Part shown: in pieces, positions 4,269-18,690 of the stretch | Numbering within the stretch: the first letter of the stretch is position 1 | How the letters are laid out: each line of letters opens with the position of its first letter | Assembly (NCBI GenBank): GCA_000002445.1 | Contig: CM000208.1 | Coordinates: 2,912,001-2,976,000 of the forward strand | Origin: Trypanosoma brucei | Lineage: Eukaryota | Direction: 5' to 3' | DNA length: 64,000 nt | Notes under the pieces: generated by a model | Told to the model about the DNA's origin: nothing | Seen by the model: only the letters and a program-made list of their open reading frames with translations | Database searches by the model: none | Position numbers and translations under genes: made by a program

Positions 4269-7037
4269 TCATTTCATGTTTTGTCGATGGGCCTTGCTCT
4301 TTAAGTGCTGTTCCCACACGCGCACTGCAACGTTTCGGCGGCAAACCCTACACATGACCTTTCCCGCCTTACGAGGGTTGGTAACTTCGTCCCTCGACAC
4401 GTGCCGTGGGGGCACACGATCCTTTCTTAAGTTCCGCGGGTCTTCCATACGTTCATGCTTCAAGGGATAACCAGGAAAGTGAGTGTCTAGATACTCCTGG
4501 AAGTTGTTCTTCTGACGGTCCTCGTAGAGCGCTTTAAAGCGATCATACGAGTCTGTGATGAAGGTAGCTTCCCCTGGGAGAATCTTTCCATCCTTGTCAC
4601 GTCCTTTCTTCCATTTGAGCCCGAAAGGTTTGCAGAGCCTGTCGAGCTGCTTCTGCTTGGCGGGGTCTAGTCGCAGTTTGGTGCATGCATCGCACTGGTT
4701 AACGTGCATCAGCACACCGCAGAGCCTCTCGAACGGGGTCGCATCCAGCCCAATGTAGCCGCCCTTGTGCACGTCGAGTGGAGGCACACTTCCATGGGCC
4801 TCCAGATACTCGCGAAGAGTATTCAAACACTCCTCCCACGGGTATGGACCGTGGAGTCCGTAAGTCCGCCACAGAGGGAGTGATTCCAGGTCGCGTATTT
4901 GGTGCATCCTCAAACAGGAGGGTTCTTTGTCCAAGTACTGACGGTATCCCTTTCGGCAGTAACGGTAAAAGAGAGCCATTGAAACCGATTTCTTTCCAAT
5001 AACCCAAGCATCGTTTGTTTTGGGATATCTATTGCACTCTAGCACAATGCGTTTCATTTCGTTGAAGGCATTCTTCCACGGAAGTCGCGTCGCGCGGTGC
5101 AATCGATCCGTGTTCTGGCTTGAGTAGCGCACCCCACGCCTGATGGCGGGAAGAACGAACCTTCGTAGCCGTTCAGATGACAGCTTGAGGGACCTCACAC
5201 CCACGACATCAACGTCGTAGGACACTTTATGAGGGTCAATCAAATACTCAAACAGCAGCGGATCTTCGTCCATCAAAGCATCTGTAAAGGGGACAAGCGT
5301 GGAAAACTTCTCCAGATTGACGGGGTGATCTTCCGGCAGCCTCTTGTTGATGGTGGCGGGAAGGAACACGTAGGAAATGGGCTTGTTTTCCATTTTATTG
5401 AGCGGTCGGCATATACTCTGAACAATGTCACGGGAGCTGTAGCGCGGGGCGGCAAAAAATACGGCGTTGAGGTCGGGAATCTCCACCCCTTCCTGGAGTA
5501 AACGAACGTTTAGCAATAGGCAACGTCTGGATGCTGAAAAATCTCTCAAAACACTAGCAACGGCGGCGCTCCCCATCCGAGAATGGGCGAGCAACACATC
5601 GAAGGGCGTTATATCATCAGGGAGGGGATGCTTCAGATCCGCCGCAAGCTTTGTCGCGTGCTCAATGCACCTACAGTAGACGATCATCTTGTCCACGGTA
5701 TTCATAGCTTCATAAAAGTATGGATTCATGTCATCCATGCTCTCGCCCAATACAATTCGCACCGCAAAAGGGTTCACGTAACCAGCGTCGATGCCCTCCC
5801 GCAAATAGTACCGATACGCTATGTCACCAAACAGATACGTGTTGTCCATTTTTAGTGGCGTATCGTATGCTGGTGTTGCAGTGAGGAATAATCTCCGTCC
5901 GCAGCGAGGTTGGAGGAGGACGTTATTGAAATTAGTGGGTAAGTCACTCCCACAAACGCGGTGACATTCATCAAATACGGTGAGTGCAAAATTTGGCATT
6001 TTTGAGATTATGTGCGAAGACTGATATGTGCTAATAACAATCAAATGTGAGGCACATGAGCTGATGGTGCTCCTAATCAATTCAGCGTCAGTCGTCATGT
6101 TACGAACACAGCCGTCCCCCATGAATATGCTTCCGCTGTCTGACCCTATAAGAAGAAATGGAACATCCTTCAAACCATAGCTATAAAGCTTCCGAGCTGT
6201 CTGCCGCAAAAGCGCAAGGCCTGGAACCAGGTAAAGAATGATGGAATTTGGTTTCATCTCCAAGTGCCGACGAATGAGATCATATGCCACTGGGGTCTTC
6301 CCGCAACGGCACGCCATTTGACAAATTGTGGCGCCACAACTATCGAGCTGCTCAAGGCAACGAGCTACAGCATCCTTTTGATACGGACGAAGCGCCGCCA
6401 AACTAAACGTCTCTTCTCCCAACGCATCCACAACCTCAAAATCACAGCCAATTTCATAGTCTTCCCCGTCTCCTGTCTCAACACTGTTGAAAATATCATC
6501 GTCAGTCGGTGCATCACATGGAGAATTGAGAGAAACCATGGACTCACGAAGCTTTTCCAGTGATCCCATGTACTTTTCCAGGGTGTGCAATTTCGGAGCC
6601 TCCGCCTCACGCCGGGAGTTTTTCTCAGTCGAGATCCGTCCACTGCTCGCATAGTCGGGTGGTAAGCTGTTCTTTTCAATATAAACGGGTGCCATGTTCA
6701 CCAGTGCGTTTAAGTTGAGCGTGCTACAAACACGTCGGGCACCCTCGGTAACATCTTGCGCATCGCCTTTTATAAGCTCTCGCTGTGGGACGCGCCTTTC
6801 TTTGAACAGAAACAGCACAGCTTGTTCAAGGAGGAACGCCTCTTTCATGCTTTCACAACGGAAAACAGCGTAGTACGACCATTCGGGTGTGAAGCACGTT
6901 GTGAACGAAGCCATTTCTAGGCGGCGGGTAAAGTCCGCTGTGCACCCAACCTTCACGTAGCCGGAGCCCGTCAACCATGGGTGGACGGCAACGTAAAAGC
7001 CAAGGCCACACCTAACGAGCACGGTCAGGCGGACCAT
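4269..7037 (-). CDS. Superfamily-2 DExH/DECH-box helicase (type III restriction Res-like or XPB-like core) with a C-terminal C2H2 U1/matrin-type zinc finger
   Basis: Walker A-like ACRCGKT, motif II VFDECHRV, motif III LFLTATP, motif VI QSICRPLN. The C-terminus has CRVCRRNVAVRVWEQHLKSKAHRQNMK (C-x2-C...H-x5-H). The true start may lie downstream of the first ATG. Confidence 0.7.
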   Translation of the reverse strand: MVRLTVLVRCGLGFYVAVHPWLTGSGYVKVGCTADFTRRLEMASFTTCFTPEWSYYAVFRCESMKEAFLLEQAVLFLFKERRVPQRELIKGDAQDVTEGARRVCSTLNLNALVNMAPVYIEKNSLPPDYASSGRISTEKNSRREAEAPKLHTLEKYMGSLEKLRESMVSLNSPCDAPTDDDIFNSVETGDGEDYEIGCDFEVVDALGEETFSLAALRPYQKDAVARCLEQLDSCGATICQMACRCGKTPVAYDLIRRHLEMKPNSIILYLVPGLALLRQTARKLYSYGLKDVPFLLIGSDSGSIFMGDGCVRNMTTDAELIRSTISSCASHLIVISTYQSSHIISKMPNFALTVFDECHRVCGSDLPTNFNNVLLQPRCGRRLFLTATPAYDTPLKMDNTYLFGDIAYRYYLREGIDAGYVNPFAVRIVLGESMDDMNPYFYEAMNTVDKMIVYCRCIEHATKLAADLKHPLPDDITPFDVLLAHSRMGSAAVASVLRDFSASRRCLLLNVRLLQEGVEIPDLNAVFFAAPRYSSRDIVQSICRPLNKMENKPISYVFLPATINKRLPEDHPVNLEKFSTLVPFTDALMDEDPLLFEYLIDPHKVSYDVDVVGVRSLKLSSERLRRFVLPAIRRGVRYSSQNTDRLHRATRLPWKNAFNEMKRIVLECNRYPKTNDAWVIGKKSVSMALFYRYCRKGYRQYLDKEPSCLRMHQIRDLESLPLWRTYGLHGPYPWEECLNTLREYLEAHGSVPPLDVHKGGYIGLDATPFERLCGVLMHVNQCDACTKLRLDPAKQKQLDRLCKPFGLKWKKGRDKDGKILPGEATFITDSYDRFKALYEDRQKNNFQEYLDTHFPGYPLKHERMEDPRNLRKDRVPPRHVSRDEVTNPRKAGKVMCRVCRRNVAVRVWEQHLKSKAHRQNMK

Positions 7038-8923: not shown

Positions 8924-9574
8924 TTAGGGGGATTCGGCAGCCACATCATGTTTTCCATCGGCCTGGTCGCGACCGTCTACTGAATGGGAAGAGTGACGAT
9001 CCGCCTCTGCAGTGCCGTCGGCCTGTTTCACGCGATCCGCATGACCTACACGGCAGTGCTCACCATATTGACAAGGTCGTCTCCCATCGTCTTCATGCAG
9101 GAAACGGCATGCATCGTAGAATTTACAATTCTTTTGGAGAAAAAAGCAGCAAGTTGTCTCTTTCTCCCAGCGCCTCTGTGTTTCCAATGACCCACCAACA
9201 AACGGCTTCTTTTTTCGTGCGCGAAGACCGAACCCACCGCGACCACGGTCACCGGTAGTGCCTCCCACGTAGGCACCACGTCCGTAGCCTCCACCACCAC
9301 GCCCACCGTTGTAGGGAGCCCTCCCACGGCCCATGTGCCCCAGAACGGTATTTTGAAATCCCTGGAAGTGCACCGGGTTGTAAGCCCCCTGGGGGTACGA
9401 ATGGTAGTAACCCCCCTGCGGGTAGTGCGTTGGGGCGTGATACTGTTGAGGCGGGTAGCCCACATGGCTATAGGTGTTGTATCCACCGTATCCTCGGTTG
9501 GGTACAAGTTGCGTTTGACCAAATGGTTGCATTCCCACAGGTAGAAGATCAATGCGCGTACGAGTGCTATTCAA
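8924..9574 (-). CDS. CCCH-type zinc-finger RNA-binding protein with a Q/Y/G-rich low-complexity N-terminal half and RGG repeats
   Basis: C-x7-C-x5-C-x3-H finger (CCFFLQKNCKFYDACRFLH) plus a second partial C-x5-C-x3-H. The N-terminal half is Gly/Tyr/Pro/Gln-rich with GRGGGGYGRG and RGRGG motifs. Confidence 0.6.
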   Translation of the reverse strand: MNSTRTRIDLLPVGMQPFGQTQLVPNRGYGGYNTYSHVGYPPQQYHAPTHYPQGGYYHSYPQGAYNPVHFQGFQNTVLGHMGRGRAPYNGGRGGGGYGRGAYVGGTTGDRGRGGFGLRARKKKPFVGGSLETQRRWEKETTCCFFLQKNCKFYDACRFLHEDDGRRPCQYGEHCRVGHADRVKQADGTAEADRHSSHSVDGRDQADGKHDVAAESP

Positions 9575-9862: not shown

Positions 9863-12574
9863 TTAGATGTCCTCCTTAACAGTGCAGTCCAGTGATAGAT
9901 GCGGTAAACCGCAAACAGAACATTCGGGTGCCATTTGCAAACCATTTTCACAGTTAGGACACAGCAGCACGTCGGTGGGAAGATTATCGCTCCCGCAAGA
10001 GGCACAAACCCACGGAAGGAAGCGCGCCCTGCACTCATACTGACTTCGCGCCCGCGCTTCCCTACACGAAATGCAGTGGTCCGACCAACTATAATTCCAC
10101 TGCCCACAAACGTGCGTCCCCGTCACAGCAGTGGCGGGAGTTGTTTCGCGAAGGCATCTCCATACATACACGTCAGCTGCCGCAACATCCTCCCGTGGCG
10201 CGCGGCACGACGTGCACTGAAAACCAATCTGTGCAGGTTTCTGCCCACAGTGACTGCAGCAAAACGGTCTGAGTTCATCGTAACAAAGGCGTGTGTGGCA
10301 AACGTTGCAGCACTCCTCCGAGAGCATGCTTTCACGCGTGTACCCCACACCACACCTGTGGCAATGGCGAGGGAGAAATGGGGAGCAAAGTACATTACAA
10401 TCTCGGGGATGAACATTGCCACAACGCTCACACACAATCAAACGTAGTTTTGAGTTGTGCAGCGGAACCTCAATCGCTTTTTGGCATGTTGACACGATGC
10501 TGCAGCATGCACAAGTGTAAGCGCCGCGGTGCAACAGAGAGCAACTCTCGCAACTCGTCCGACAGGGATGGTTCCGCCCGCCACACCCGCACACCCACGG
10601 CTGCAACGGGGTCACAATGCAGCCCACCTTTCGTTTTCCGGGGCAATGCTGGCATTTCGACCAAGCCGAATGATTAAACTCACCACAAGCATCACAGTGC
10701 CAAAGCAAAGAACTCTTTGCCTCGTTGGCTGCATAGCAAGTGGGGCAGCACAGTGCTTGCTTACTGTATAAGCAACCACAGGAGGGGCATTCCCTCGTCG
10801 CTTGCTTCTCGCGATCTATTTCCCCACACTTGCCACATTCACCTGTGGGAGGTAATATCTCTCCGCAGCCCTCACAAACTCCGACATCCATCAACTCCGC
10901 CTCTCGCATCCTCGGGTGTGGTGAACCGCAGTTGCAAACCGTCTCAACGACCCTGCCGCTGTGCCGGGCGCCACAAACCCCACAAGTCCACGAAATATTC
11001 CCTTGTCGAAGGCAGGTTAAGCACCTCTGTGCGCAAGAGGGGAGTTGCGTACCACAACCGCAACGCCACCAAAACTGAGACCTTTCCATCACTTTGAAAT
11101 CTTCGAGTAGGCGCCGAACCATCGGATTATCACCCAGTCGTATCCCACTCAAACACCTCGAAGGAAAGTAGTCAGCCTGGAGGTTAGCAGTTATGTTCTG
11201 CACAATGGAACAACCAAGTTCACCGTGGGCCTTCCATATCTCGCTCATGATGGGAATAAGGCTGTCTATAACCCACAGAAAGTTGATACTTGGGTGCTCC
11301 TTCAGAAATCGATAGAATTCAGATACAGCAGTGGCCGTTTCCTTGAGGGAACGAACCCCAACAACGCTGACCAAAAGACGAACAACTTGAGAAAAGGCAG
11401 ACTTGTCCACGATAACCGGGTGTCCCAGGGAAGCACACACGTGATACGCTTCAACCACCCTTATGTACACCATGGATTGAGGCTTCAGTGTTATGGCGCC
11501 CTTGAAAAAGATAACCCAAACCGACTGCAAATTGGATTGGCAACTTCCGTAAAGACGAACCGCGAGAGTTGTTACCGCAACTATTTTACGCCAGATTCTG
11601 GCGTCATCACCACCGTCGTCGGCCTCCCCTGTCGCCCCTGCATCCACTAAGCTCCCAACGCAGCGAAGAAGGTACGACAGTGGAAGTTTGGTCTCAAGGG
11701 CTGGAATTTTTGCAAGAAGCTCATCGTGCAGAGACATTAGAGCCTCCCCCCGCCACTGTCGCATGTAAATCCGGCTCAGCTTGTTCAGTATAGGCGTCCA
11801 ACGAACTGACAAGTAGTCAAATGAGTCACCTATTTTACCAATGATGCAGCGAAGGATGGCGTCCATTTCATCGAAATGGTGAGATGTAAAGAAGTTGTCG
11901 CTCGACAACAATCCCTCTACACATGCACAAAACAACCCCTTGCTTATTCCTTCATCACTGCTACATCTTTCCAACTCACGACGAACAACACATTCAAGCA
12001 GAGTCGGGATTGCAGGCACTGACAGCAGCAACTGAACTATGTGGAGTGGAACAGGGCCACGAAACTCCTCTAACTCGGACGAGATTGTCGCGAACTGCTT
12101 TCCGCCATCGTCATTAGTTGAGGCCCATGCGGCATTCAGGAACGAAACCACCAGCTGAATACACCTTGTGTCACGATGTGGGCGAACAGCCGGGCACGAT
12201 GCGCCAAAACACCGTAATGTAAGTTGTGCATATCGACAGCCAGCAACAGATGTACCACCAAAAAGGTTTGCCTCATGTGCTGTCATAAAGGCGCCATCAG
12301 TTTTCAACGCCAATAGCAACAATGGAAGGCGCACATCGTCCGGAGAATGCGGTGCGCCTCCCGCCCACAGAGCAATCGCAGTAAAAGGATAAAAGCTATG
12401 CGACAGGCCCGTGATGCACACACCGCCATTTGCAAAATAATCACTTATGCCTCCCGAAATTTCTCGCTCAAACACCAGACGTTCCTCCATTTGAAACACT
12501 GACGATGACGGAAGGGTAAGTGCTTCTCTCGGTCGGCGCATCACTCTTTTTACTACAGGGCGCCATCTTCTCAT
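9863..12574 (-). CDS. Large protein with a helical N-terminal domain followed by an array of at least 10 RanBP2-type (ZnF_RBZ) or C2C2 zinc-finger modules
   Basis: Repeated W-x-C-x2-C-x3-N-x6-C-x2-C modules, for example WHCDACGEFNHSAWSKCQHC, WVCGCGGRNHPCRTSCESC, WRCGCGTQLPSCAQRCLTC and WVCASCGSDNLPTDVLLCPNC. Many further C-x2-C...C-x2-C units follow. 903-aa ORF. The start could be the internal Met at residue 29. Confidence 0.75.
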   Translation of the reverse strand: MRRWRPVVKRVMRRPREALTLPSSSVFQMEERLVFEREISGGISDYFANGGVCITGLSHSFYPFTAIALWAGGAPHSPDDVRLPLLLLALKTDGAFMTAHEANLFGGTSVAGCRYAQLTLRCFGASCPAVRPHRDTRCIQLVVSFLNAAWASTNDDGGKQFATISSELEEFRGPVPLHIVQLLLSVPAIPTLLECVVRRELERCSSDEGISKGLFCACVEGLLSSDNFFTSHHFDEMDAILRCIIGKIGDSFDYLSVRWTPILNKLSRIYMRQWRGEALMSLHDELLAKIPALETKLPLSYLLRCVGSLVDAGATGEADDGGDDARIWRKIVAVTTLAVRLYGSCQSNLQSVWVIFFKGAITLKPQSMVYIRVVEAYHVCASLGHPVIVDKSAFSQVVRLLVSVVGVRSLKETATAVSEFYRFLKEHPSINFLWVIDSLIPIMSEIWKAHGELGCSIVQNITANLQADYFPSRCLSGIRLGDNPMVRRLLEDFKVMERSQFWWRCGCGTQLPSCAQRCLTCLRQGNISWTCGVCGARHSGRVVETVCNCGSPHPRMREAELMDVGVCEGCGEILPPTGECGKCGEIDREKQATRECPSCGCLYSKQALCCPTCYAANEAKSSLLWHCDACGEFNHSAWSKCQHCPGKRKVGCIVTPLQPWVCGCGGRNHPCRTSCESCSLLHRGAYTCACCSIVSTCQKAIEVPLHNSKLRLIVCERCGNVHPRDCNVLCSPFLPRHCHRCGVGYTRESMLSEECCNVCHTRLCYDELRPFCCSHCGQKPAQIGFQCTSCRAPREDVAAADVYVWRCLRETTPATAVTGTHVCGQWNYSWSDHCISCREARARSQYECRARFLPWVCASCGSDNLPTDVLLCPNCENGLQMAPECSVCGLPHLSLDCTVKEDI

Positions 12575-15334: not shown

Positions 15335-15847
15335 TCAAATGTTGTTGGTATCGGAAAGCATTTGCAGCGCTTGCTTCACGTTAGCTTCCGTCAATCCAGT
15401 TGTCGCATTCGTGACGATGGCGTGCCGCGCGAAGAAGTTGCGATCAGGGGCGCTGAGTGGTAAGTTAATATCGTCCAGAGCAACGAAGTTGACAATATTG
15501 TACTTTCTTTTGTTAGAATCAATCCACGACAGTATTTCCACAGACCTTGGTTTATCCGGAAGCGTCGGGGTGCAGTCGATGAAAACTGGCATGCCAAACT
15601 GGGTGAGCTGACGGGCCACTTCTTTCCGCCCAAAATCTGTTGTGCGCCACGAGCTGCTCAACACAATTTGCGCTCCCGACCCGTTTATTATATCAGCGAG
15701 GAACTTCATCTGCCTTGGGGCAAACAGCGGCCCCCCAAAGGGTGACACAACGCCATCACAGTCAAGGAACACAATTTTAAGGGGTGCGTTGTTGAAGGGC
15801 ACAGCGTTTGTGGCCGTGTTTCCGGATTTTGCTTTTGTTGCTTTCAT
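15335..15847 (-). CDS. Small HAD-superfamily-like hydrolase or phosphatase domain protein (171 aa after start trimming)
   Basis: HAD motif I-like IVFLDCDGVVSPFGG near the N-terminus. The 252-aa six-frame ORF was trimmed to the Met of MKATKAKSG (ATG revcomp at 15845-15847). The upstream extension translates a T-rich tract. Confidence 0.5.
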   Translation of the reverse strand: MKATKAKSGNTATNAVPFNNAPLKIVFLDCDGVVSPFGGPLFAPRQMKFLADIINGSGAQIVLSSSWRTTDFGRKEVARQLTQFGMPVFIDCTPTLPDKPRSVEILSWIDSNKRKYNIVNFVALDDINLPLSAPDRNFFARHAIVTNATTGLTEANVKQALQMLSDTNNI

Positions 15848-16650
15848 GTCGCGGTTTACACTATTTAAAAAAAAATAATAAATAATAAATAAATGACAGA
15901 AGCGCTGGAGAAGATCAAACCAACGGAGATGTGTGAAGGAGGAAGGCGGAAGGTGTTCCTGGAAAATAATATGGGTGCTAGGAAGGTAAATAACTAAACG
16001 GAAGCAAACACACGAGTAGAAACTACACGAGAGGTTGCTGCGTATGTATATCCCTTTACTTCTGGCGGTCCCTTTTAATGGGAATATCACCAAAGCGGGA
16101 TTTCAACAAAGTGAAAAAAATTAAGGAGGGCAAAAAAAAAAGTTAAAGGTTAAAATAATGGTGACAGAACGGAAAAGGGGTTTAAACGCTAAGAATTGTG
16201 CTATCCTGTTTGCCCTTGTCAGGAAGCAGTCATGTTCTACCTTTCGTGCGCTCCGTTCTCGTTGAACAGTTTCACATATTAAAAAAAAAGTAAAACCAGA
16301 AGCAGAATTTTGAATATAAAAAAACTGATGAAAAGGTACATGGGTGTGTTAGTTTAGGTATATATAAAAGCTTGGGTGGGAGCAGGCGCATCGATGGATG
16401 CAACTGCCTCCCTGTAACAGTGTTACTACGTTAAAATTCCAGTAGGATGCCCCAAAATTCGATGACTGCGGCACTAGGATGGGGTTGAACGTAAAAGTGT
16501 GACTAAGCGATCTGCTACTCAACCGCAGCGACCCGTCCCCCAAACGCCGTAGGCACTCTCGCTCGTTTTACCGTAACCACCGGGTAGCTTTTACCCCAGT
16601 AATGTTTTTCCTTCGCCATTACCCCCTTTATTTAATGCGAATCCACCCTT

Positions 16651-18690
16651 TCACCCTTCGCGTTGTCTTTTACTCCCCAATGTATAAGCACCAATCATCG
16701 ACTCGCTCGCATTACCACCGCACGCGAGCTGATGAACGTGGTTAACCACATCATGGGCAATCTGTTCTGTCAATCGCGAATCTTCCCTGTAGTCAGGGTG
16801 CTTCTTAACAAAGTTCCTCAAGTACTGCGCCGCTGTTGGTATCTCCCCACACGCTCGTTTAGAAATAAAGTTTAAGTAGCCCTCGACCACATCGCTTTGA
16901 ATGTTTTCCTCCTCTAGGTACCGACGAACAAGTGGAATTAGGCCATAGTACTCACCAGGCTTTCCATTGATAACTTCCCCAACAGTGAGCTCACAGTTTT
17001 CGCTGGGATCAGTAGTTACTTTGGATGCGAATATGTCACGCCTCATGATATAATGCTGCTGGCACGGGTTGATGTTGTGCGCACGGCCCATATTTTCATC
17101 AACAATGCTTAATTTTGTGTAAAAAACGGCACCAAACCTCATAATGGCACGCGTAAGTAACACAACGAAAACAGAGTATGCTGCGTTTTCAAATGGTGTT
17201 GGCATCACGTCCATTACACGAAACTCCACACGCCACCCAAGCGTGCTGTCAAGCACGGGAAGTTTCAAACGAACAGTTTGCCAATTTGTGCTTTGAATAT
17301 TTTCAAAGTGGTCCACGTGTGTGTGGTCGTCTATGTCTATCATCTGGTCGTAGATGACAAGAGGGTCTCGAATGAAGAGATGCGCAATATGTGTGGCCAA
17401 ACGGGAGTCCACACCTTCCCTAGTGAGTAAATTGTAATAAGAGTCGTTTATCCTGAGCACCTCGTCGTTGAACTCCTCCAGGTTTGGCGTCAATGAACTG
17501 ACAAATACAGAAATTGAGTCATAACGCGACTTGATAATGTGCGGCACCTCCTCATACTTGCGGTCATCAACGGAGGCGGTGATCGTCAACCAGCGAACGT
17601 CCGACTCGCAGAGAATGCCCTTTTGAAACGGGGTTGCTGAGCTTAAGGCAAGAAATAAAGGGCATAATATCCCCAGTTGGTCGTATATATGACGCGCCTG
17701 CGCTTCATTAGGAAGCTGCATGGTAAGCTGAAGGCAGTTGCAGCCCATCCCAAAGGCCATACAATCCATGTAAATGCAAGGGTGGTTTACAGATGGAACG
17801 GGACAGGGGCAAGCCTGGTACCGCTGCTTCACTCGCTCCGCCTGAAGGTTTTGAAAGTATTGAGCATAGTAGTAGTGCGTAACAGGCGTGTAAAGATGTG
17901 TCATATTCGTTACTGCTTCATTTTCTAGAGGAACGCGTTTCGGAGTGATGGTATCACATGAAAATTTCTTTCCCTTCGAACTAGTCTTCTCACCCGAAAA
18001 CGTACAAACAATTTCAACGTTACGGGGATGTAGATCAATATTTACACGCGGGTCTACCGTCCTCTCCATGGTGTACCTGTCAATAAACATCGGTACCTGA
18101 ATGCAAACCTTTCGTCCACGGCGTAGACGAATATTGTTCGTGAGAGCCTTGAAACGAGGATGAGAATCATTGATACACGCATCCGGTACGAAAAGAGACT
18201 GGGAGCACGGTGATTCGGTTTCCGTTGACGTGGTGAAACCACCAACACCCATCAATGGAAACGTGACCAACGTAACAGCGAATGTGTTGTCACCAGCGGC
18301 AGCGTCCAACATGTGGTAACGCCGCCGCATGTTTACTTCCACAGAACACAATGAATCCACATTCGACGAGTATGGCTTGCCGGGGAGGCTCTCGACCATA
18401 AAACTCCCATATTCTGGGCGCCATTCTGCAGTACTCTCGCCGCTGCTTTGACTAAGGCGTTTGATAACGTCCGCAGCGTTAAGCGATAGTTTGACTTTGC
18501 GGCTCTCAAGGCGCACGAGCTGGTGTTCAATTTCGTCTCCCCATAGAAACGGGAAATCAGGTAGCTCCTTCTGTTTGTTGTACACCCACAGAAACTGTTG
18601 AATGCCATGTGCTGACACGTACTCTTTGGCACGATTGTTTTCCTCTGTACCCCACTGCAGAGGCTGGCCGCCAGTGGTTAGAAGACCCAT
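16651..18690 (-). CDS. GSH1: Gamma-glutamylcysteine synthetase (glutamate-cysteine ligase catalytic subunit)
   Basis: 679-aa ORF with a eukaryotic GCL catalytic-subunit signature throughout (N-terminal MGLLTxG...PLxWG..E). The length matches the reported T. brucei enzyme. Confidence 0.93.
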   Translation of the reverse strand: MGLLTTGGQPLQWGTEENNRAKEYVSAHGIQQFLWVYNKQKELPDFPFLWGDEIEHQLVRLESRKVKLSLNAADVIKRLSQSSGESTAEWRPEYGSFMVESLPGKPYSSNVDSLCSVEVNMRRRYHMLDAAAGDNTFAVTLVTFPLMGVGGFTTSTETESPCSQSLFVPDACINDSHPRFKALTNNIRLRRGRKVCIQVPMFIDRYTMERTVDPRVNIDLHPRNVEIVCTFSGEKTSSKGKKFSCDTITPKRVPLENEAVTNMTHLYTPVTHYYYAQYFQNLQAERVKQRYQACPCPVPSVNHPCIYMDCMAFGMGCNCLQLTMQLPNEAQARHIYDQLGILCPLFLALSSATPFQKGILCESDVRWLTITASVDDRKYEEVPHIIKSRYDSISVFVSSLTPNLEEFNDEVLRINDSYYNLLTREGVDSRLATHIAHLFIRDPLVIYDQMIDIDDHTHVDHFENIQSTNWQTVRLKLPVLDSTLGWRVEFRVMDVMPTPFENAAYSVFVVLLTRAIMRFGAVFYTKLSIVDENMGRAHNINPCQQHYIMRRDIFASKVTTDPSENCELTVGEVINGKPGEYYGLIPLVRRYLEEENIQSDVVEGYLNFISKRACGEIPTAAQYLRNFVKKHPDYREDSRLTEQIAHDVVNHVHQLACGGNASESMIGAYTLGSKRQREG

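What the first reader, a model, noticed from the sequence alone, without database searches (positions are those of the whole stretch)
9863..12574. 903-aa protein with an unusually long array of RanBP2-type or C2C2 zinc fingers
At least six canonical W-x-C-x2-C-x3-N-x6-C-x2-C RanBP2 fingers and several additional C2C2 variants are packed into the C-terminal roughly 450 residues, after a helical N-terminal domain. RanBP2 fingers bind ssRNA, ubiquitin or Ran. An array of this size is rare and suggests a polyvalent RNA- or ubiquitin-binding scaffold. In kinetoplastids, where gene regulation is post-transcriptional, such a protein is a candidate RNA-processing or nuclear pore-associated factor.
Basis: partly seen in the sequence, partly recalled or inferred. 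Interest (0 to 1): 0.5.

Follow-up and report, generated by a model that had tools for sequence, protein, structure and literature searches.

The report
Kinetoplastid solenoid protein with twelve zinc fingers
This uncharacterised Trypanosoma brucei gene encodes a probably mitochondrial, kinetoplastid-only protein in which a helical repeat domain is fused to a rigid, fixed-order array of twelve zinc-binding modules that are diverged relatives of RanBP2-type fingers; it is not a nuclear-pore or ubiquitin-binding protein.

Summary
The 903-aa ORF (9863-12574, minus strand) is real. It is T. brucei Q389A9, inferred to be Tb927.10.12340, a "hypothetical protein, conserved". Its C-terminal 400 residues hold 60 cysteines in 12 four-ligand modules, almost all invariant across 28 family members down to 18% identity. 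The claim of "at least six canonical RanBP2 fingers" is overstated. Only one module (aa 625-644) fits the strict pattern, and no module reaches Pfam's zf-RanBP threshold (best 19.0 bits, cut-off 27). Family profiles nevertheless hit mainly solved RanBP2/NZF fingers (Nup153, RanBP2, HOIP, FUS; E 4e-4 to 1e-3), so these are diverged RanBP2-like ribbons. None carries the ZRANB2 RNA signature or the T-F/L-V dipeptides of the ubiquitin and Ran signatures. New findings: the array looks like a duplicated five-finger block plus one finger and a CCHC knuckle; AlphaFold2 predicts one compact body (pLDDT 85.9, pTM 0.83); the N-termini look like mitochondrial presequences; every named relative is a kinetoplastid; no paper or proteome table searched here reports the protein. 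Most likely role: an adaptor in mitochondrial RNA or kDNA metabolism. That function is inferred only.

The parts
9863..12574 (-). Complete CDS, 903 aa plus stop. It is T. brucei Q389A9, inferred to be Tb927.10.12340.
   Evidence: ORF list. 100% identity to T. brucei, T. b. gambiense and T. equiperdum proteins. It lies between ZC3H34 (Tb927.10.12330 = Q389B0) and GSH1 (Tb927.10.12370).
12455..12574 (-). aa 1-40: basic, acid-poor N-terminus (MRRWRPVVKRVMRRPREALTLPSSS...), a putative cleavable mitochondrial presequence. M1, not the annotated M12, is the likely start.
   Evidence: MRRWxxVxKRxLxRR is conserved in 7 Trypanosoma species. Family N-termini average 0.8 D/E and 5.9 K/R in the first 25 aa, against 2.0 and 3.1 in window controls (p=6e-5). 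pLDDT is below 50. The NDUFS1-like mitochondrial protein in the same window starts MRRF.... A polypyrimidine tract plus AG lies upstream of M1.
11090..12454 (-). aa 41-495: all-alpha helical-repeat (alpha-solenoid) domain. The core at about aa 160-495 is confidently modelled. The best conserved residues are L222, K265, Y270, W328 and R372.
10619..11086 (-). aa 497-652: finger block 1.
   Evidence: Motif and ortholog analysis. hhalign against block 2 gives P=99.6%, E=7e-25, with all five fingers in register.
10634..10711 (-). [not shown]
   Evidence: Regex match. Pfam Zn_ribbon_RanBP scores 19.0 bits, E=8e-4, below the 27-bit cut-off. Weak phmmer hits to TAB2/TAB3 NZF.
10040..10618 (-). aa 653-845: finger block 2, paralogous to block 1.
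10055..10171 (-). [not shown]
   Evidence: N16 in 22/23, W19 in 23/23, no R20. The family profile's best match for this stretch is the FUS ZnF (E about 1e-3). Pfam zf-RanBP scores 13.9 bits.
9941..10021 (-). [not shown]
   Evidence: The unbiased family profile hits HOIP/RNF31 NZF (E=7.6e-4), then Nup153, RanBP2, YAF2, MDM4, NPL4 and TAB2/3. Pfam zf-RanBP scores 12.1 bits and Zn_ribbon_3 21.6 bits.
9878..9931 (-). [not shown]

Best explanation

Shown: the anatomy, the conservation, the class of the fingers, the duplication, the predicted rigidity, and that every relative whose source organism is named is a kinetoplastid. Inferred: mitochondrial location (about 0.7) and nucleic-acid binding (about 0.4).
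For: Anatomy and conservation.

Duplication.

Mitochondrial targeting: compositional bias of otherwise unconserved N-termini across the family (p=6e-5). aa 1-40 are disordered. The same MRR+aromatic start occurs on the NDUFS1-like complex I subunit in this window, which is listed in the importome.

Lineage restriction: 38 relatives in 1.84e9 proteins. All named ones are Kinetoplastea, from Apiculatamorpha (Prokinetoplastina) to Trypanosoma.

Precedents for organellar RanBP2-finger proteins acting on RNA: MRB6070, with 5-6 RanBP2-type fingers and RNA-dependent association with the MRB1 editing accessory complex (PMC3384329). Plant OZ1 and OZ2 act in chloroplast editing and mitochondrial splicing (PMC4359148, PMC8034646, PMC7154859).

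CCHC knuckles commonly bind single-stranded nucleic acid (own knowledge).
Against: No experimental localisation or interaction data could be retrieved. The protein is absent from the mitochondrial importome tables and from every hyperLOPIT protein table searched.

No finger in any of 28 members has the ZRANB2/FET RNA signature. The Arg20 kept in all known RNA binders is missing (criteria from PMC6384913).

The finger region is only mildly basic (mean +2.6 per 100 aa; +4 overall in T. brucei). A rigid, tightly packed array is equally compatible with a purely structural or protein-binding role.

The presequence call rests on composition, not on a trained predictor. MRB6070 is not detectably homologous (it does not appear among the 38 hits).
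Confidence: 0.4

Rival explanations
1. A mitochondrial protein-protein scaffold or assembly factor, for example for the mitoribosome, a respiratory complex or the import machinery. The zinc ribbons would be structural or protein-binding modules only, with no nucleic-acid contact.
For: RanBP2/NZF fingers often bind proteins; the top structural-class hits are Nup153, RanBP2, HOIP and NPL4. No RNA-binding signature is present. Net charge is weak. The predicted architecture is rigid and compact. The solenoid resembles generic protein-docking repeats. The same presequence evidence applies as for the best explanation.
Confidence: 0.3
2. A kDNA-associated factor (replication, segregation or packaging) that binds DNA rather than RNA.
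For: Restriction to Kinetoplastea matches the distribution of kDNA. Low abundance is typical of kDNA factors. CCHC knuckles occur in the minicircle-origin binding protein UMSBP, which co-purified with the RanBP2-finger protein MRB6070 (PMC3384329).
Against: The gene is not mentioned in the supplementary files held for the genome-wide kDNA-maintenance screen, nor in any main text of the library. RanBP2-type fingers have no established DNA-binding mode (own knowledge). The array is not strongly basic.
Confidence: 0.15
3. One reading: a nuclear or cytosolic polyvalent RNA- or ubiquitin-binding scaffold, or a nuclear-pore-associated factor with canonical RanBP2 fingers.
For: One finger fits the PROSITE pattern, and UniProt auto-names the protein 'RanBP2-type domain-containing'. 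The finger class is shared with Nup153 and RanBP2. A basic N-terminus could in principle be an NLS.
Against: All zf-RanBP scores are below threshold. RNA, ubiquitin and Ran contact residues are absent. There are no FG repeats. The N-terminal composition is presequence-like across highly diverged homologs. The fixed, non-interchangeable fingers and the rigid model argue against a flexible polyvalent scaffold.
Confidence: 0.08
4. A generic Cys-rich region that does not form zinc ribbons, for example disulfide-rich or Fe-S binding.
For: Every Pfam zinc-ribbon score is below threshold.
Against: The ligands come in regular C-x(1-2)-C...C-x(1-2)-C quartets, far above chance. Ligand quartets are invariant over deep divergence. 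The class-specific W and N are conserved. Profile hits go to solved Zn ribbons. AF2 models the region confidently with short beta-hairpins.
Confidence: 0.03

Closest known systems
RanBP2/NZF-type C4 zinc fingers (Pfam PF00641, PROSITE PS01358), as in Nup153, RanBP2/Nup358, NPL4, HOIP and TAB2/3
   Same: Modules of about 25-30 aa with W-x-C-x2-C...N...C-x2-C, four Cys ligands, and the conserved Trp and Asn. Family profiles retrieve almost only these solved fingers. RanBP2 itself carries a cluster of eight (PMC7154859).
ZRANB2 / FUS-EWS-TAF15 / RBM5-RBM10 ssRNA-binding RanBP2 fingers
   Different: Arg20 is absent, although all tested RNA binders keep it (PMC6384913). N14, N24 and the Asp preceding the Trp are also absent. 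0 of 28 members carry the full signature in any finger.
MRB6070 (Tb927.2.6070), T. brucei mitochondrial RNA-editing accessory (MRB1-associated) protein
   Same: A kinetoplastid mitochondrial protein predicted to carry 5-6 RanBP2-type fingers. It associates with the editing machinery through RNA (PMC3384329). It is the nearest functional precedent in the same organelle.
   Different: MRB6070 is about 31 kDa, with no solenoid reported. It is not among the 38 hits of the exhaustive family-profile search, so it is not detectably homologous. I could not obtain its sequence for a direct comparison.
Plant Organelle Zinc finger proteins OZ1 and OZ2
   Same: Organelle-targeted proteins whose RanBP2 fingers serve organellar RNA editing (OZ1) or intron splicing (OZ2) (PMC4359148, PMC8034646, PMC7154859).
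   Different: OZ proteins have 2-4 fingers that closely resemble ZRANB2, including its RNA-contact residues (PMC7154859). The fingers here lack those residues, number 11 plus 1, and are fused to a solenoid. Any relationship is analogy, not shown homology.
DZANK1 / double-zinc-ribbon (DZR) arrays
   Different: Scores are below threshold. DZANK1 has ankyrin repeats and a different context. There is no evidence of orthology.

Membership tests
Pfam Zn_ribbon_RanBP (PF00641) | HMM score at or above the gathering cut-off (27 bits) | tested here: not met
   [not shown]
PROSITE-type RanBP2 pattern W-x-C-x(2,4)-C-x3-N-x6-C-x2-C | Exact pattern match | tested here: met
   [not shown]
RanBP2/NZF finger class (broad sense) | C4 ligand quartet with about 10-residue spacer, Trp two residues before Cys1, Asn four residues after Cys2, and profile similarity to solved fingers | tested here: met
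   [not shown]
ZRANB2/FET ssRNA-binding subclass | Aromatic at position 17, Arg (or Trp) at 19, Arg at 20, plus N14, N24 and an Asp before the Trp (PMC6384913) | tested here: not met
   [not shown]
NZF ubiquitin-binding fingers (NPL4, TAB2/3, HOIP) | T-F dipeptide directly after Cys2 (visible in TAB2/3), plus a hydrophobic residue near Cys3/4 (own knowledge) | tested here: not met
   No T-F-like dipeptide occurs in any W-type finger of the 28 members. Those positions are mostly G-A, G-x or E-E.
Nucleoporin RanBP2-finger proteins (Nup153, RanBP2/Nup358) | L-V Ran-contact dipeptide after Cys2 and FG-repeat regions (own knowledge) | tested here: not met
   No L-V or M-V dipeptide. There are only two isolated FG dipeptides and no GLFG or FxFG. 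The N-terminus is presequence-like.
Nucleoporin RanBP2-finger proteins (Nup153, RanBP2/Nup358) | Localisation at the nuclear pore | not testable with these tools
   The TrypTag table is truncated in the stored supplement. No paper's main text mentions the gene.
Mitochondrial presequence-targeted proteins | N-terminal basic, hydroxylated, acid-poor segment that is unstructured in the mature fold | tested here: met
   The family averages 0.8 D/E and 5.9 K/R in the first 25 aa, against 2.0 and 3.1 in controls (p=6e-5). aa 1-40 have pLDDT below 50. Positive control: the NDUFS1-like ORF in the window starts MRRF.... No trained predictor or import assay was available.
Mitochondrial presequence-targeted proteins | Detection in mitochondrial proteomes | tested here: not met
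   The protein is absent from the importome tables and from the hyperLOPIT protein tables, whose lists jump from Tb927.10.12330 to 12360. Some files are truncated, and absence may simply reflect low abundance.
MRB6070-like editing accessory proteins | Sequence homology to MRB6070 and RNA-dependent association with MRB1/RESC | tested here: inconclusive
   No protein of MRB6070's size appears among the 38 profile hits. The sequence could not be retrieved, and association cannot be tested here.
Plant OZ family | Organelle targeting plus ZRANB2-like RanBP2 fingers required for editing or splicing | tested here: not met
   Targeting is plausible, but the ZRANB2-like residues are absent. No OZ protein appears among the family hits. 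This is an analogy only.

The most novel reading that the evidence does not exclude
The protein is a previously unrecognised core factor of kinetoplastid mitochondrial gene expression. In this reading a rigid ruler of ten paralogous RanBP2-like fingers (two five-finger blocks), plus an extra finger and a CCHC knuckle, reads an extended single-stranded RNA or kDNA element. It would use a recognition mode (aromatic W-N-Y-S-W faces, no Arg-Arg) unlike any described for this finger class. That would be a kinetoplastid-specific counterpart of the modular organellar RNA readers (PPR, OZ).
Probability: 0.1. Interest if true: 0.8.

Novelty: new variant of a known kind. Interest (0 to 1): 0.45.

Why it matters
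Roughly half of trypanosome genes have no known function. Kinetoplastid-specific mitochondrial proteins are where the lineage's oddest biology sits (kDNA, U-insertion/deletion editing), and they are candidate drug targets.

This family is conserved from Prokinetoplastina to Trypanosoma, has no Pfam domain, matches no solved structure or paper searched here, and escapes the proteomes searched here. It also shows that RanBP2-like fingers can be built into a rigid, fixed-order 12-module body. In that body none of the tested contact signatures (ZRANB2-type RNA residues, the ubiquitin T-F dipeptide, the Ran L-V dipeptide) survives.

If the fingers do read RNA or DNA, that would be a new recognition mode for the class. 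If they do not, it is a clean example of zinc ribbons used as structural bricks. Either way, the work turns a vague 'RanBP2-type domain-containing protein' label into a testable domain map, with a corrected start codon.

Tried and rejected
- Pfam on the whole protein, on 10 isolated modules and on 28 family members gave no zf-RanBP hit above threshold.
- Word-indexed homolog searches with the sequence and with the profile found only Trypanosoma. The exhaustive profile search was needed to find the rest.
- The first AF2 run, with 7 sequences, was poor in the finger region (pLDDT 62, pTM 0.47) and was superseded by the 28-sequence run.
- Sequence and profile searches against all PDB chains found no family member in any solved complex.
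- Literature: no main-text mention of Tb927.10.12340, Tb10.389.1400 or Q389A9. The gene is not in the supplements of the importome, TrypTag (truncated file), kDNA screen or structure-based annotation papers. In the hyperLOPIT supplements it appears only in an orthogroup table, not in the protein tables. No supplements are held for the MRB1 paper or the kinetoplast-protein preprint.
- Retrieving MRB6070 through its published antibody peptide failed because the query was too short.
- Pfam on the long, finger-poor relatives gave nothing.
- I considered and rejected a flexible beads-on-a-string scaffold (pTM 0.83, position-specific conservation), an Fe-S or disulfide-rich region (W/N signatures, PDB hits to Zn ribbons), and an NPC protein (no FG repeats, presequence-like N-terminus).

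Full report
**Observation**

The ORF is real. It runs ATG to stop at 9863-12574 on the minus strand and encodes 903 aa. Every large ORF listed in the first 30 kb of the window is on the same strand, as expected for a kinetoplastid polycistronic unit.

Cysteines are concentrated in the C-terminal part: 15 in aa 1-500 and 60 in aa 501-903. Shuffles of aa 497-903 that keep composition give on average 8.6 CxxC motifs (19 observed; 2 of 20,000 shuffles reach that). They give 3.2 paired C-x(1-2)-C...C-x(1-2)-C modules (16 observed; 0 of 20,000) and 0.4 W-x-C-x(1-2)-C starts (5 observed; 0 of 20,000).

The strict pattern W-x-C-x2-C-x3-N-x6-C-x2-C matches only once, at aa 625-644. 'At least six canonical fingers' is therefore an overcount. 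The general description, a helical N-terminal domain followed by a very long finger array, is correct.

**Identity**

The protein is 100% identical to T. brucei TREU927 XP_823439/EAN78611 (UniProt Q389A9) and to T. equiperdum and T. b. gambiense entries. All are annotated 'hypothetical protein, conserved'. UniProt adds an automatic 'RanBP2-type domain-containing protein' name.

Neighbouring ORFs are a CCCH protein at 8924-9574 and glutamate-cysteine ligase at 16651-18690. GSH1 is Tb927.10.12370 (PMC8292159). ZC3H34 is Tb927.10.12330 (PMC4055773) and has UniProt accession Q389B0, adjacent to Q389A9. With three ORFs between them, the target is inferred to be Tb927.10.12340. That ID exists, with single-copy orthologs in T. 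congolense, T. vivax and T. cruzi.

The TREU927 model starts at M12 (892 aa). M1 is preferred because MRRWxxVxKRxLxRR is conserved in seven Trypanosoma species, and a polypyrimidine tract plus AG lies just upstream.

**Anatomy of the array**

Alignment of seven Trypanosoma orthologs (48-54% identity) and of 28 family members down to 18% identity resolves twelve four-ligand modules:

**Class of the fingers**

**Ligand signatures**

The criteria come from PMC6384913. RNA binders have an aromatic at position 17 and Arg19/Arg20. Arg20 is kept in all binders, and a K19/S20 finger does not bind RNA. N14 and N24 also belong to the signature. Using these criteria, I tabulated every W-type finger in the 28 sequences.

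**Internal duplication and rigidity**

**N-terminal half**

aa 1-40 are disordered in the model. Across 27 family members the N-terminal sequences are unrelated but share composition. The first 25 aa average 0.8 acidic and 5.9 basic residues, against 2.0 and 3.1 for 18 other ORFs of this window (net-charge Mann-Whitney p=6e-5). Examples are MLRRVAKRTTAVRPRIAPK and MSLRPAIAARRPKSFGRAVL.

An internal positive control exists. The NDUFS1-like Fe-S protein at 58599-59510 starts MRRFSNCLL and corresponds to the importome-listed Tb927.10.12540. I infer a mitochondrial presequence with probability about 0.7.

**Distribution and data**

An exhaustive profile search of 1.84 billion representative proteins gives 38 relatives. 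The named ones are Trypanosoma, Strigomonas, Leptomonas, Phytomonas and Apiculatamorpha spiralis. The last belongs to Prokinetoplastina, per the NCBI taxonomy lookup. The rest are unnamed environmental or transcriptome sequences.

**Mechanism and rivals**

Support:
- Organellar precedents: MRB6070 in the same organelle (PMC3384329) and plant OZ1/OZ2 (PMC4359148, PMC8034646).
- A Kinetoplastea-only distribution among named relatives, which parallels kDNA and U-indel editing.

Against:
- No Arg20 in any finger.
- Only a mild positive charge.
- A rigid architecture.

**Novelty**

The gene is in the databases as hypothetical, and the finger class is known, so this is not categorically new. Several features appear undescribed and together amount to a new variant of a known kind: the family-level definition, the 5+5+1+1 architecture, the variant knuckles, the loss of the tested ligand signatures, the predicted rigid body, the probable mitochondrial targeting and the corrected start codon.

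Noticed in passing
window 12542-12574 (-), aa 1-11: The TREU927 and T. equiperdum gene models (892 aa) start at M12. T. b. gambiense (903 aa) and all other Trypanosoma orthologs start at the conserved MRRW... M1. The reference annotation probably truncates the presequence by 11 residues.
   Followed up: partly
window 4269-7037 (-): A 922-aa protein combines an N-terminal T5orf172/MUG113 (GIY-YIG-like) domain with a ResIII/DEAD SF2 helicase core. This is an unusual nuclease-like plus helicase fusion in a trypanosome.
   Followed up: no
window 15335-16093 (-): A 252-aa protein has a strong match (97 bits) to HAD_SAK_2, the HAD domain of 'Swiss Army Knife' RNA repair proteins. It is probably Tb927.10.12360.
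   Followed up: no
window 8924-9574 (-): A small CCCH zinc-finger protein with a Gly/Arg/Tyr-rich N-terminal half, immediately downstream of the target. It is identified as ZC3H34 (Tb927.10.12330), an activator in the tethering screen and classed as 'ribonucleoproteins' in hyperLOPIT.
   Followed up: partly
window ORFs starting at about 53895 and 50183 (-): Two adjacent ORFs of 920 and 912 aa have identical first 30 residues (MGDTGPKGVPGTNDAGEVHKPQKPQRRQSV). This looks like a tandem gene duplication.
   Followed up: no
window 58599-59510 (-) and 54322-56874 (-): A 303-aa NDUFS1/Nqo3-like Fe-S protein (only the N-terminal Fe-S domains) starts MRRFSNCLL. An 850-aa ORF with no Pfam domain starts MRRYSTRMLPRAK. 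Both have presequence-like N-termini. The first matches the importome-listed Tb927.10.12540, and the second is possibly Tb927.10.12520.
   Followed up: partly
[not shown]
   Followed up: partly
[not shown]
   Followed up: no
whole window: GC skew on the + strand is negative in every 2-kb bin, and every large ORF in the first 30 kb is on the minus strand. This is consistent with a single polycistronic transcription unit spanning the window.
   Followed up: no
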